Source of the DNA: Octopus vulgaris
Lineage: Eukaryota
DNA: 64,000 nt
NCBI GenBank assembly: GCA_951406725.2
Contig: OX597821.1
Span: 67,642,001-67,706,000 of the forward strand
Direction of reading: 5' to 3'
Shown piece by piece: positions 14,479-57,020 of the stretch (the stretch's first letter is position 1; every line of letters begins with the position of its first letter). The position numbers and the translations under genes are program-made. The notes beneath the pieces are model-generated. The model had not been told where the DNA came from. It was given only the letters and a program-made list of their open reading frames with translations, and did not search any database.

Positions 14479-14665
14479 AAGGCGGCGAGCTGACGGAATC
14501 GTTATCAAGCCGAGAAAAATGCGTAGTAGTATTTTCTCTGCCGAGATCAGTTGCCTTTCATTCTTTCGTGGTCGATAAAATATGCACCAGCTGTGTACTA
14601 GGGTCTAGTTAATTGACTACCTACAACCATCACCACCACGAATTTCAGGCCTTGTGCCAAATTTT
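14479..14665 (+). mobile_element. SINE-C with an internal deletion
   Basis: Head aaggcggcgagctgacggaatcgtt and body ttgcctttcattctttcgtggtcgataaa. Confidence 0.8.
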
Positions 14666-14747
14666 GAAATCAGTATCAGTTACTCCCTGTGATGTAATGT
14701 TTACACTTATTCTCTCAAAAATAACCTATGCAGCTTTTCATTTATTT

Positions 14748-15083
14748 CTTTTATTTATTTATTTATTTATTTATGCACCCTTTTCAAGCCTAGCCAGTCT
14801 CATAGGCCCGGTTTCTCCTTTTCTGTGGCGTATGTTTCCCCCCCCCCCCCAGCTGGACGGAACGCCAATCCATCGCAGCGTTACTCAAGAAACAAGACGA
14901 AAGAATGAGAGAAAGTTGGGGCGAAAGAGTACAACAGGGGTCACCACCACCCTCTGCCGGAGCCTCGTGGAGCTTTTACGTGTTTTCGCTCAATAAGCAC
15001 ACACAACGCACGGTCTGGGAATCGAAGCCGCGATCCTCCGACCGCGAGTCCGCTGCCCCAAGCACTGGGCCTTTGCGACTCCA
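14748..15083 (-). mobile_element. SINE-B, full length (tRNA head, V-domain-like core, TAAA tail)
   Basis: Core gcgatggattggcgttccgtccag resembles the V-SINE domain. 12-bp TSD tttcatttattt at 14736-14747 and 15085-15096. Confidence 0.9.
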
Positions 15084-15519
15084 ATTTCATTTATTTGGTT
15101 CAAGCTTTATTCTAAATGAATTTCATTTGTTGACGAAGTCTACGGCAATAACATGCTGCTTTAAAATGCCGTGTGGACTTTATTCTTCTAGGATACATAT
15201 TCAAATAGGTTAGCATTTCCACATTTTCATCTTTTGTCTAATTATTTATCTATCTTTTTAATTATTTATTTATGCATTTATATTTCTCTGGAGGATTATC
15301 TTCAAATTTGATTGATTTATTATCCATTCATAGAAACAAGCTTTTCAGCTCTTCTGCCAGCCATCAGCGCAACACGAGCTATCGTGTTATCCCATGGAAA
15401 TTATCACCTTTCTCTGTGAAGCAAAAATTTCTCTTCACAAGATTTAATTATTGATACAACAAACGTAACATACTTGCCTTTAGAATGTCTAAATTTCAGA
15501 AAATGAAGCCCACTTTCTC

Positions 15520-33702: not shown

Positions 33703-33897
33703 CGTAAATTAATATGTGTGTATATGTATATCGTTGGCCATGATTCCCCTCATTGCTACTCAGAGTTTCTTTAAGCCTTCGATATCCTTGTATATGGTAT
33801 CTGGATCAATCGTATTGCACTTCGTTTTGGACGTGTGGGACCAACAAAAATGGTCTGTTTCACCACTAACTTAAAATATGATGGTACAAAGCAGTGC

Positions 33898-34284
33898 GTG
33901 GAGGCGCAATGGCCCAGTGGTTAGGGCAGCGGACTCGCGGTGTTAGGATCGCGGTTTCGATTCCCAGACCGGGTGTTGTGAGTGTTTATTGAGCGAAAAC
34001 ACCTAAAGCTCCACGAGGCTCCGACAGGGGATGGTGGTGATCCCTGCTGTACTCTTTCACCACAACTTTCTCTCACTCTTACTTCCTGTTTCTGTTGTAC
34101 CTGTATTTCAAAGGGCCGGCCTTGTCACTCTCTGTGTCACGCTGAATATCCCCGAGAACTACGTTAAGAGTGCACGTGTCTGTTGAGTACTCAGCTACTT
34201 ACACGTTAATTTTACGAGCAGGCTGTTCCGTTGATTCGGATCAACCGGAACCCTCATCGTCGTAACCGACGGAGTGCTTCCACC
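33898..34284 (+). mobile_element. SINE-B head with alternative 3' module (tail X)
   Basis: Perfect 12-bp TSD acaaagcagtgc at 33886-33897 and 34285-34296. Diverges from SINE-B after cttcctgtttct. Confidence 0.9.
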
Positions 34285-35177
34285 ACAAAGCAGTGCAAAA
34301 TTATATAGATATCATTGTAAATTATTTTGCATTTGTGTATAAGTTTATGTATGCATGTATGGTGTCGTTCATTTTGAGTGAAACCATACGCATAAATATT
34401 TATATATAATTAAATAAATGTATGTATATATATATTCATCTGTGTGTGTGGGTGTGAGTGTGTGTCTGGTTGTGAGTGTGGGGAGTGTACGGATACATGT
34501 ATGTAGACATGGGTGTCAGGCATTTTTTGGATAAACTTTCTTTTTGCCATATCTATCGTGTGTGCTACATATGGAAATCAATCATTGCTGATTCCTTTAG
34601 CATTTCAAAACATTCCCAACGTGATCATCGGAATAAAATAAGCATAATAGTGTATCGTTGCAGCATGTCGTAGTGCACCGCAAATGATCATGAGTAGTAG
34701 GATATTTTGATGTTCTAATTGCTTTGGATTGATTTATCGTTTTGTAATAGTAACCTCGCGGTTTCTGTTATACTTTATTTGATCTTTATTTATTAGCGAT
34801 AGAAGTAGAGTATCGTGATCTGGTGGTCTCAGCGCTGGAGATGGTGAGCATTCACCTCGCCGCGGGCGATGTAACCACGGGTGCATTCTGCACCAAAAGT
34901 CGATGTAAGTATTTCTCTCACGAGTATAATTTGTACGTGTAGGTCGTAATAAGCATAAAAGTGTGCTGTATGAAATTGCAAAATAAAAGTAAATAAATTT
35001 TGAGGATGAAAATCTCCATCTTCTAAATCGTTATAATTATGGTCCATGTATGTGTGTACGTGTGAGTTTGTGTGTGTGTGTGAGTGTGTTTGTGTGTACT
35101 TACGTATTTGTGTGTATACATATGTATATGTATGTATGTATATACATATAATGTGTGTGTGTGTTTGTGTGTGTGCA

Positions 35178-35446
35178 GAGGCGCAATGGTCCAGTGGTTA
35201 GGGCAGCGGACTCACGGTCGGAGGATCGCGGTTTCGATTCCCAAACCGAGGGCTATGAGTGTTTATTGAACGAAAACACCTAAAAGCTCCATGAGTCTCC
35301 GGCAGGGGGTGGTGGTGACCCCTGTTGTACACTTTCGCCACAACGTTCTCTCACTTCCTGTTTCTTGAGTAACGCTGCGATGGACTGGCGTCCCGTCCTG
35401 CTGGGGGGAACACATACGCCACAGAAACCAGGAAACCGGGCCCATC

Positions 35447-37752: not shown

Positions 37753-38658
37753 CAAACACGCGCGCACATGTATTTCTGTATGAAGCGCAAGGGAGAGAGA
37801 GGGAGAGAGCGGAAGAGAGAAAGTACGAGAGAGTGTATATCGATAAATATCTTGTGATGGCGGTTTGTGATGAAAGAGACAGTTCTGGAACCAAAATATT
37901 TTATACGCATGTAAATCTTGCAAGGTATTAAAAAACATTATATATAGATTGTCATAGATATATCACGTCACTAATTTGACCATTAAACCGTCTTTCAGTA
38001 ATGGTAAACACTATTCGTGTGAAGATTAGCAGGATGTCAATCAGTGATCAGTATAGAGACGACTAGCTATACCTATTCATCATCTGAACAATACATACAA
38101 TCATACATACATACATATATACATACATACATACATATATATGAACATGGCCGATCGTTGTATTCTTTCATGTCTTGAGGTTCACAACCAAATGCCTGGG
38201 TGGATTCCCGTGAAAAATGGCAAACCTGTGGAGAGGGGAGTATAGACTGGTATGCGGTTTGTATTTCTTCCTAGCCCGCATACTTACCGAGAAAATCGAC
38301 TAAAAATTTTCTAATGGAATTCCTGTTTGTTCTGCCATTAAAACAACCAGTTGCTAACACAACCGGCATATACCATTTCGCTAACAACAAGGGGAGTGTA
38401 GGATGACAGTCAGCCAAAACTTTTGCTATGCTGTCTATCTTCTTTCACCTCTTTGTGGGGTTAATTATCTTGATCTCTAGTTACAGTTTCTGATTCAAAC
38501 TACATAATAGGCAGAATTATCGGATTAAGACAGTAGGGTGTTTTGAGGGAGATTTGGCTGCTATTTCTACCAATTCTAGCTAGCATGTAGAGGTCTGAAC
38601 TTAACTTTTATTCACATATGCCTCACCGAAAACGATCCAGCCACATCATCAAAACAGA

Positions 38659-53758: not shown

Positions 53759-53809
<51 letters not shown>

Positions 53810-54348
53810 TATATATATATATACAAATTGAGATAGGGGTTGTAAATGCAACCCTCTATGGGATAACATATATCCAATATACTGCTAGTGAAGTACCCAA
53901 CAAAGTTAATACATAAATGTTAAGAATTGTGATGCAATTAATTCATTTACTGTATTATATGGGCAAAGGTAAAATGTTTTACCACAAATTCATAATACAA
54001 AATAAGAAAATGGAGAAATACATCCACATCAAATATCAACTACCAGATAATACCCAATCACATACTTTATAAACCACTACATAAGAAACTTTAAGGTCAA
54101 ACATAATAATATAGAACAAAACAGTGTACATAAAGGAGTAATATGATACAATAAGTACAATATGTATAAGAGAATATAAATATAAATAAATATAAATATA
54201 AACTGCATCTTACAGCTGTTTACTGTTTTGTTCTATATTATTATGTTTGACCTTAAAGTTTCTTATGTAGTGGTTTAATAAAGTATGTGATTGGGTATTA
54301 TCTGGTAGTTGATATTTGATGTGGATGTATTTCTCCATTTTCTTATTT

Positions 54349-55560: not shown

Positions 55561-55654
55561 GTTATTCCAGACCTAAAGATGACATTGTGACGGCATTGTC
55601 GTAGCTCGAACGGTTTTGGTGACCGAGCATATCAGTTTGAGTTTATCTGGGATT

Positions 55655-56285
55655 GTGGAGGCGCAATGGTCCAGTGGTTAGGGCAGCGGACTCGCGGTTG
55701 GAGGATCGCGGTTTCGATTCCCACATCGGGTGCTGTGTGTGTGTTTATTGAGCGAAAACACCTAAAAGCTCCACGAGGCTCCGCCAGGGGATGGTGGTGA
55801 CCCCTGTTGTACTCTTTCGCCACAACTTTCTCTCACTCTCCCTTCCTGTTTCTTGAGTAACGCTGCGATGGACTGGAGTCCCGTCTAGCTGGGGGGGGGG
55901 GCATAAGCCACAGAAACCGGGAAACCGGACCCATGAGCCTGGCTAGGCTTGAAAAGGGCGCATAAATAAAGGAAATATAAATGAAAAGCTGCATAGGTTA
56001 TTTTTGAGAGAATTAGTGTAAACATCACATCACAGGGAGTAACTGATACTGATTTCGAAATTTGGCACGAGGCCTGAAATTCGTGGTCGTGATGATGGTG
56101 GGTAGTCGATTAACTAGACCCTAGTACTCAGCTGGTGTATTTTTTATCGACCCCGAAAGAATGATAGGCAATTGAATTGGCGACCCGTCCAGCTTGGGGG
56201 AACACATACGCCACAGAAACCGGGAAACTGGGCCCATAAGCCTGGCTAGGCTTGATAAGGGCGACCTTTATCCGTTACGTTTACG
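55655..56285 (+). mobile_element. Composite insertion: SINE-B, transduced flank, second SINE-B tail
   Basis: Perfect TSD ttatctgggatt at 55643-55654 and 56286-56297. The middle segment matches the reverse complement of 14547-14747. Confidence 0.88.
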
Positions 56286-57020
56286 TTATCTGGGATTAAA
56301 CAAAAAGAAAAACTACTGCAGCTTAGTCTAGCTAACATCAGCACTAACGTGAACCCGTTACTGCCACCATGCCATCACAGGAAGCACTGCATTAACAATA
56401 GAACTCAATCAACAATGCTCTGTCAGCGCCACCACCGTCACAACTAGCAACCCCCACCGCCCTTCACCATCATCACCATTAACAACAACGCTACTACTTC
56501 ATCAATACCAGCATCGCTCAATAAACAATACCGACGCTAACAGTAACGAGAAGACCTTTTCATGAGCAACACTAATAAAAGCATAACTATAGCCACAACA
56601 GCATCGCTAACATCATCAGCATTGTCATCATTAACACAATCAAGACACCACCACCACCACCACCACCACCATCAACAACAACAACAGCAACAACGGTAAC
56701 GACAACAACACCAACAACGACAACACTATTGATATCATCGGCCAACATCAACATTATTATGATTAGTGCAGGTTGTAAAAACACAAGCTAGCAAGCAATA
56801 TACTGAAATCCACTCACATTCTAATATTTTCCAGCGTTTTATCGTTCCCCGGGGCTATTAACATAATTCGCTTTCTGCTCTGGCTTTTAATCCACCCCTG
56901 GGTACAATTTCAGCCTCAGACAGCTTCAATAATCAAAACAGGTATACTGCTTCGTTTGCTGAAATTGTCGTGGCGGAGGGAGATGTTGGGGACGTTGTTG
57001 GTTTTAGTTATTGCCGTTGA

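What the first reader, a model, noticed from the sequence alone, without database searches (positions are those of the whole stretch)
55643..56297. SINE-mediated 3' transduction with donor and daughter 41 kb apart
Seen: one perfect 12-bp TSD (ttatctgggatt) encloses a full SINE-B, then ~200 bp (about 55977-56175) matching the reverse complement of 14547-14747 (about 15 mismatches by hand count), then a second SINE-B 3' end and a short ttacg-like tail. The captured piece is non-SINE spacer plus an antisense SINE-C fragment. Both SINE-B copies share an expanded G run (11-13 versus about 6 in other copies) and an interrupted TAAA tail. The insert starts exactly at the SINE 5' end. Known: 3' transduction is typical of L1 and SVA and is limited for Pol III SINEs, and the captured flank contains T5 runs that should terminate Pol III. 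Inference: a read-through SINE transcript was rescued by RT template switching from another SINE tail, or by recombination, then inserted locally. This is a route by which tail-dependent SINEs capture flanking DNA and create new modular families.
Basis: partly seen in the sequence, partly recalled or inferred. Interest (0 to 1): 0.75.

Follow-up and report, generated by a model that had tools for sequence, protein, structure and literature searches.

The report
Repair copy mimicking SINE transduction
About 200 bases of DNA were copied 41 kb along a chromosome into the middle of a short jumping repeat, likely by DNA break repair and not through the repeat's RNA, so the site only looks like a jumping gene carrying its neighbour's DNA.

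Summary
The anatomy is real. A perfect 12-bp repeat encloses a SINE, ~200 bp that match only one other place (41 kb upstream, inverted, 92% identical), and a second SINE 3' end. The upstream locus is the source.

The reading as an RNA-borne 3' transduction is not supported. The family has two tail subfamilies with linked body markers. The daughter's 5' body is of the same type as its own last tail, not of the donor's type. Long G runs are common. The captured piece ends at no terminator and no tail. A retrotransposed copy would land this close about 3 times in 100,000.

Best reading (0.6): an ordinary SINE with its own target-site duplication was broken near position 185-230. Repair used the nearby inverted SINE as template and copied its 3' end plus flank (repair-mediated duplication, DDSA type). 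Main rival (0.22): the reverse transcriptase hopped onto local sequence during insertion; head-to-tail dimers inside one TSD keep this alive.

It is a single event, not a composite family. My look-ups of earlier scan notes found no such case.

The parts
55643..55654 (+). 5' copy of the 12-bp target-site duplication
   Evidence: only two occurrences in the window
55655..55840 (+). SINE-B 5' body of the ACGT-tail type (inferred host element); diagnostic A at 55822 and C at 55840
   Evidence: (lnLR +6.5 for ACGT type)
55841..55890 (+). Inferred zone of the switch from host to donor sequence (it could lie as late as the tail)
   Evidence: inference: after the last host-type marker and before the long G run
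55891..55976 (+). SINE-B 3' part with G11 run and interrupted TAAA tail; tail donor-derived, body likely donor-derived
55977..55986 (+). Copy of the donor's own 3' target-site duplication
55988..56045 (+). Captured unique spacer; 2 mismatches in 58 sites to the donor; contains the T5 at 56001
56046..56175 (+).
56170..56179 (+). Right junction: a 5-bp tandem repeat where donor flank and SINE-B consensus share a 4-bp motif (possible microhomology); no tail, no T run
56176..56285 (+). SINE-B 3' remainder (consensus about 215-303), short G run, ACGT-type tail (inferred rest of the host element)
56286..56297 (+). 3' copy of the 12-bp target-site duplication
   Evidence: a contig of organism C starts to match exactly at 56286
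14748..15083 (-). Donor SINE-B with TAAA tail, G13 run, diagnostic C at 14919
15085..15096 (-). Donor's own 12-bp target-site duplication, 5' copy (3' copy at 14736-14747)
14547..14747 (-). Donor flank that was copied; the SINE-C-like element runs on to about 14460

Best explanation
The site is a SINE of one subfamily, with its own target-site duplication, interrupted by a copy of the tail and ~200 bp of flank of a different SINE copy 41 kb away, most likely made at the DNA level by break repair. SHOWN: the source, the direction of copying, the chimeric make-up and that the tract is single-copy. INFERRED steps: (1) two young SINE-B copies inserted independently in inverted orientation, a TAAA-type at 15083 and an ACGT-type at 55655, each with a 12-bp TSD; (2) a break or stalled fork arose in the second copy near consensus position 185-230; (3) its left end paired with the nearby homologous SINE and primed synthesis through that copy's G run, tail, TSD and 200 bp of flank; (4) the new strand came off at 14547 and rejoined the right end at a short shared motif, leaving a 5-bp stutter. 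The TSD therefore belongs to the host insertion and did not arise with the captured DNA.
For: Subfamily markers in 56 tail-selected copies: A in 28 of 30 ACGT-tail copies versus C in 23 of 26 TAAA-tail copies; C in 25 of 30 versus T in 17 of 26. The daughter's three-site haplotype occurs in 22 of 30 ACGT and 0 of 26 TAAA copies, and the donor differs at two of the three sites. Genome-wide the daughter's body motif goes with an ACGT tail 192 times and a TAAA tail 29 times, although TAAA ends are the commoner (567 versus 235 exact matches). The last host-type marker (position 183) lies upstream of where the 3' remainder starts (about 215), as one break predicts. The G run is long in donor and first copy, short in the remainder. 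The right junction has no tail or T run. Proximity by chance is 2.9e-5. Only two loci hold the spacer. The SINE-C piece continues at the donor.
Against: No allele with the host SINE intact was seen, so the order host-then-capture is not shown. The daughter's first 3' part shares none of the donor's private changes outside the G run, so the left switch cannot be mapped; this fits an early event but also a capture at the moment of insertion. Flank and SINE-body divergences are not distinguishable (chi-square p = 0.28). Marker 183 lies in a slippery CT tract. 28 other copies combine this body with a TAAA tail, and the donor itself classifies only weakly (lnLR -0.94). The AU test does not reject sisterhood (p = 0.185). 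Pace et al. class only duplications under 5 kb confidently as repair products. Dimers inside one TSD suggest this family's reverse transcriptase can join templates.
Confidence: 0.6

Rival explanations
1. Capture during insertion. The partner LINE's reverse transcriptase began on an ACGT-type SINE RNA, hopped after about 90 nt onto local DNA or nascent RNA at the donor flank, copied through the donor's tail, then hopped back onto the SINE RNA by homology. The TSD formed in the same event.
For: Explains the same chimera and the apparent simultaneity of insertion and capture. Head-to-tail SINE dimers sit inside single direct repeats in this genome (L152, L155), as end-to-end template jumping would give (that mechanism for R2-type enzymes is recalled, not looked up).
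Against: Needs two switches and a local template in one event. All 6 dimers seen join a complete SINE head to a complete 3' end, whereas here an internal SINE position is joined to an internal flank position. No Pfam family passed its cut-off in 26 of 59 ORFs, so no host gene supplying a nascent RNA was found; short exons were not tested.
Confidence: 0.22
2. First reader's model. A read-through transcript of the donor was rescued by a template switch from another SINE's tail and inserted locally. The 5' body later came to look ACGT-type by gene conversion or two coincident changes.
For: The insert starts at the SINE 5' end. Donor tail, donor TSD and flank follow in the order of a read-through RNA. 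Long G run shared. Sisterhood not formally rejected. Copies with this body and a TAAA tail exist.
Against: Marker mismatch at 55822 and 55840. The RNA would have to pass a T5 and end at a site with no terminator. Proximity is unexplained (2.9e-5). A search of 118,489 full-length AluY confirmed no Pol III SINE transduction (bioRxiv 10.1101/2024.04.29.591526).
Confidence: 0.1
3. A member of a composite SINE family, a segmental duplication, a closer donor elsewhere, or an assembly artefact.
For: The genome search scores only the best candidates and skips very common words.
Against: The spacer has 2 matches among 2 candidates. Among 40 scored of 1806 candidates only self and donor cover it. Homology stops at the boundaries. 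The copies differ by 8% in the flank. Contigs of organisms B and D hold the 3' remainder joined to the TSD and right flank.
Confidence: 0.04

Closest known systems
Repair-mediated duplications (Pace, Sen, Batzer, Feschotte 2009, PMC2671141; parts 1-2 of 8 and searched passages read)
   Same: A transposable element interrupted by a single-copy 50-600 bp piece from the same chromosome; no poly(A/T) tail; microhomology or filler at the junction.
   Different: Donor is 41 kb away (their confident class is under 5 kb; surveyed in vertebrates only). The left junction appears primed by SINE-SINE homology, so the two TE halves overlap by about 90 bp and their +/-30 bp collinearity rule would have missed it. 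The pre-capture allele was not seen here.
Duplication-dependent strand annealing, DDSA (Fiston-Lavier 2007, seen only as described in PMC3276153; passages read)
   Same: Break inside a repeat, repaired from an ectopic copy of that repeat, copying its flank; short tandem repeats left as traces in the new copy.
   Different: Described for kilobase segmental duplications in Drosophila; here about 0.2-0.3 kb inside a SINE with an intact TSD.
3' transduction by L1 and SVA; tested for Alu (bioRxiv 10.1101/2024.04.29.591526, part 1 of 3 read; PMC9311842 listing only)
   Same: Element plus its 3' flank inside a TSD at a new site.
   Different: No new tail at the end of the flank; the 5' body is not of the donor's type; a second SINE 3' end closes the insert; the copy is local. 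That study confirmed no AluY transduction and cites two isolated reports.

Membership tests
3' transduction | Element and flank lie inside one TSD | tested here: met
3' transduction | The mobilised element is a copy of the source element | tested here: not met
   subfamily markers differ; together in 0 of 200 bootstrap trees, but AU p = 0.185
3' transduction | Flank ends at a terminator or tail | tested here: not met
   T5 is internal; no T run or tail at 14547/56175
Repair-mediated duplication / DDSA | Interrupted TE with an insert found at one other place | tested here: met
Repair-mediated duplication / DDSA | Donor close by on the same chromosome | tested here: inconclusive
   41 kb: far closer than chance but beyond the 5-kb class of PMC2671141
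Repair-mediated duplication / DDSA | No poly(A/T) tail; microhomology or filler at the junction | tested here: met
   no tail; 4-bp shared motif and 5-bp stutter (exact join ambiguous)
Repair-mediated duplication / DDSA | Homologous repeat at the priming end (DDSA) | tested here: met
   switch point only bracketed
Repair-mediated duplication / DDSA | Pre-capture allele with the TE uninterrupted | tested here: inconclusive
   contigs do not bridge the SINE
Composite SINE family | Many copies of the same composite | tested here: not met
tRNA-derived SINE (for SINE-B) | tRNA-related head with Pol III boxes | tested here: inconclusive
   no tRNA call and no meaningful Rfam match; short length, thousands of candidates, tails and TSDs fit a SINE; tRNA origin is recalled by resemblance

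The most novel reading that the evidence does not exclude
During insertion of a SINE, the partner LINE's reverse transcriptase left the SINE RNA, copied about 300 bases of chromosome 41 kb away, and returned to the RNA. Tail-dependent SINEs could then capture local DNA without any read-through transcript, in a genome where the same family also forms TSD-enclosed dimers.
Probability: 0.22. Interest if true: 0.6.

Novelty: new member of a known kind. Interest (0 to 1): 0.3.

Why it matters
It is a clean example of how a SINE-primed local duplication can pass for a Pol III SINE 3' transduction: TSD, full 5' end, donor tail and flank are all there. Subfamily markers separate the two readings. Such events would be missed by screens for interrupted elements that require collinear halves, and miscounted by transduction screens. 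It is one old, non-coding event with no sign of function or spread.

Tried and rejected
(1) Relatives' contigs (4 of 24 runs). In organisms B and D the spacer is covered by one contig with donor alleles only, while the 3' remainder and TSD are present; this could mean a host SINE without the insert. Rejected as evidence: the unique left flank (55576-55639) is also uncovered in those runs, contigs show presence only, and no same-species control was obtained. Organism C's contig that starts at 56286 has 117 unlaid letters upstream, but they were not shown to match the left flank, so an empty site is not proven. (2) A screen of 264 kb for other two-copy local duplications listed 9 pairs but failed to recover the focal pair, so it gives no background rate. 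(3) Paired SINE 3' ends at spacings 120-150 and 200-230 gave 0 matches; 265-295 gave 7, the focal locus and 6 head-to-tail dimers. Other spacings were not searched. (4) The left flank as a second captured piece: 1 match, itself. (5) The tree is star-like with 0 strongly supported branches (49 of 56 copies, 7 short ones dropped). (6) Rfam, ARAGORN and Pfam (26 of 59 ORFs) gave nothing above cut-off. (7) Paper searches showed no invertebrate SINE case in their listings; only listings were seen for most papers, no supplements were read, and subscription journals are not covered.

Full report
Setting. The window lies in a 2.8-Gb genome (G000, contig C8). The repeats resemble octopus SINEs; that label is recalled, and earlier scan notes use it too, but I did not test it.

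Observation. The 12-mer at 55643 recurs only at 56286 in the window. Between the copies lie a full SINE-B, a tract matching 14747-14547 on the minus strand with 15 mismatches, and a SINE-B 3' remainder with a short tail. The spacer query matched 2 of 2 candidates genome-wide, itself and the donor at 96%. A longer query across both junctions found no other locus covering the spacer among 40 scored of 1806 candidates. Homology does not extend past the boundaries.

Direction. The upstream SINE-B has its own 12-bp direct repeat (15085-15096 and 14736-14747), and the daughter carries most of its 3' copy and the interrupted tail. The SINE-C-like element continues past 14547 at the donor but is cut in the daughter. 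A 1177-bp contig of organism C matches only 55977-56172, starting at the donor's TSD, with about 490 other letters on each side. This fits a donor site without SINE-B; I did not check those letters. So the upstream locus is the source.

The two SINE-B copies are not a parent and its copy. Neither is among the other's 40 best scored hits. SINE-B has two common tails, TAAA-type (567 exact matches) and ACGT-type (235). I took the first 30 matches of each, chosen by tail only, and dropped 4 TAAA loci that lacked the 5' body. Position 165 is A in 28 of 30 ACGT copies and C in 23 of 26 TAAA copies. Position 183 is C in 25 of 30 versus T in 17 of 26. The daughter's 5' body has A and C; the donor has C and T. 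The daughter's three-site haplotype occurs in 22 of 30 ACGT and 0 of 26 TAAA copies. A four-column classifier, right for 55 of 56 copies left out in turn, gives the daughter lnLR +6.5 for ACGT and the donor -0.94. Genome-wide, the daughter's body motif is linked to an ACGT tail 192 times and to a TAAA tail 29 times, the focal locus included. The daughter's last tail is ACGT-type. So the 5' body matches the element's far end, not the donor.

Results against this. The tree is star-like: donor and daughter are together in 0 of 200 bootstrap trees, but forcing them together is not rejected (AU p = 0.185). Position 183 is in a CT tract, and 28 other copies join this body to a TAAA tail. The long G run, offered as a shared trait, occurs in 12 of 55 copies, so it is weak evidence. 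It still favours a donor origin for that stretch, because the 3' remainder has a short run.

Junctions. The right junction has no tail and no T run. The T5 at 56001 lies inside the captured tract. Donor flank and SINE-B consensus share a 4-bp motif at the join, and the daughter shows a 5-bp tandem repeat there; the exact join is ambiguous. The left switch lies after position 183 and probably before the G run. It cannot be mapped further, because the daughter shares none of the donor's private changes outside the G run.

Timing. Mismatches are 21 of 186 sites in the 5' body, 8 of 60 after the G run, 2 of 58 in the spacer and 13 of 130 in the SINE-C part; these are not distinguishable (p = 0.28). 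Family copies are about 6% from their consensus. At 56095 and 56097 organisms B and D carry the donor's letters on the donor-like contig, while organism C carries the daughter's (40 of 186 rows were shown). This suggests the copy predates the split of A, B and D. The capture therefore seems to have happened while both SINEs were young.

Mechanism. A retrotransposed copy would land within 41 kb with probability 2.9e-5, so the template was probably local. The simplest account is one break in a TSD-flanked ACGT-type SINE. The left end invaded the inverted neighbour by SINE homology, copied its 3' end, tail, TSD and 200 bp of flank, and rejoined the right end at a short motif. This predicts that host-type markers end upstream of where the remainder begins, which is what is seen (183 versus about 215). 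The steps are inferred; the intact host allele was not seen, and relatives' contigs were inconclusive. The main rival is a double template switch by the reverse transcriptase during insertion. It remains open because SINE dimers occur inside single direct repeats (L152, L155), but those join complete heads to complete 3' ends.

Comparison. Pace et al. 2009 (PMC2671141) describe 824 human repair-mediated duplications inside interrupted elements, with donors under 5 kb away and no poly(A/T) tails among 39 inspected. They note that more distant cases are often retrotransposed. The DDSA model, as described in PMC3276153, is repair of a break inside a repeat from an ectopic copy of that repeat, leaving short tandem repeats as traces. 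The locus works like these. It fails two defining tests of 3' transduction, a process not confirmed in a search of 118,489 AluY copies. Supplements were not read.

Verdict. A real, single, non-coding event, most likely a SINE-primed repair duplication that mimics transduction. No composite family was found in the searches run. New member of a known kind; interest 0.3.

Noticed in passing
L152, L155 (also L150, L151): Head-to-tail SINE dimers enclosed by one direct repeat (9 and 14 bp exact in L152, L155); L150 and L151 pair a related SINE with SINE-B in microsatellite flanks. Possible end-to-end template jumping or dimeric masters.
   Followed up: partly
L094, L108, L135, L142, L126, L086: In 6 of 60 tail-selected loci the 3' end of a related SINE (sharing part or all of SINE-B positions 199-307) directly abuts a SINE-B head.
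   Followed up: partly
L153, L154 (G000:C29, about 23.93 Mb): Tandem array of SINE-B units, some with an internal deletion.
   Followed up: no
window 33897-34283: A SINE sharing SINE-B positions 1-198 but with a different 3' half and its own 12-bp direct repeat; with the related SINE above, the family is modular around position 198.
   Followed up: partly
window 35175-35445: ACGT-type-bodied SINE-B lacking its last 30 or so bases, set between GT microsatellites.
   Followed up: no
window 38323-38597 and 53805-54081: Each has one close match within 135 kb (87% and 96%); may be low-copy repeats or local duplications, unverified.
   Followed up: no
window 14919-15000: The donor has a rare marker mix: four-A run as in ACGT copies, C and T as in TAAA copies (1 of 26 TAAA copies), suggesting an intermediate SINE-B sub-lineage.
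   Followed up: partly
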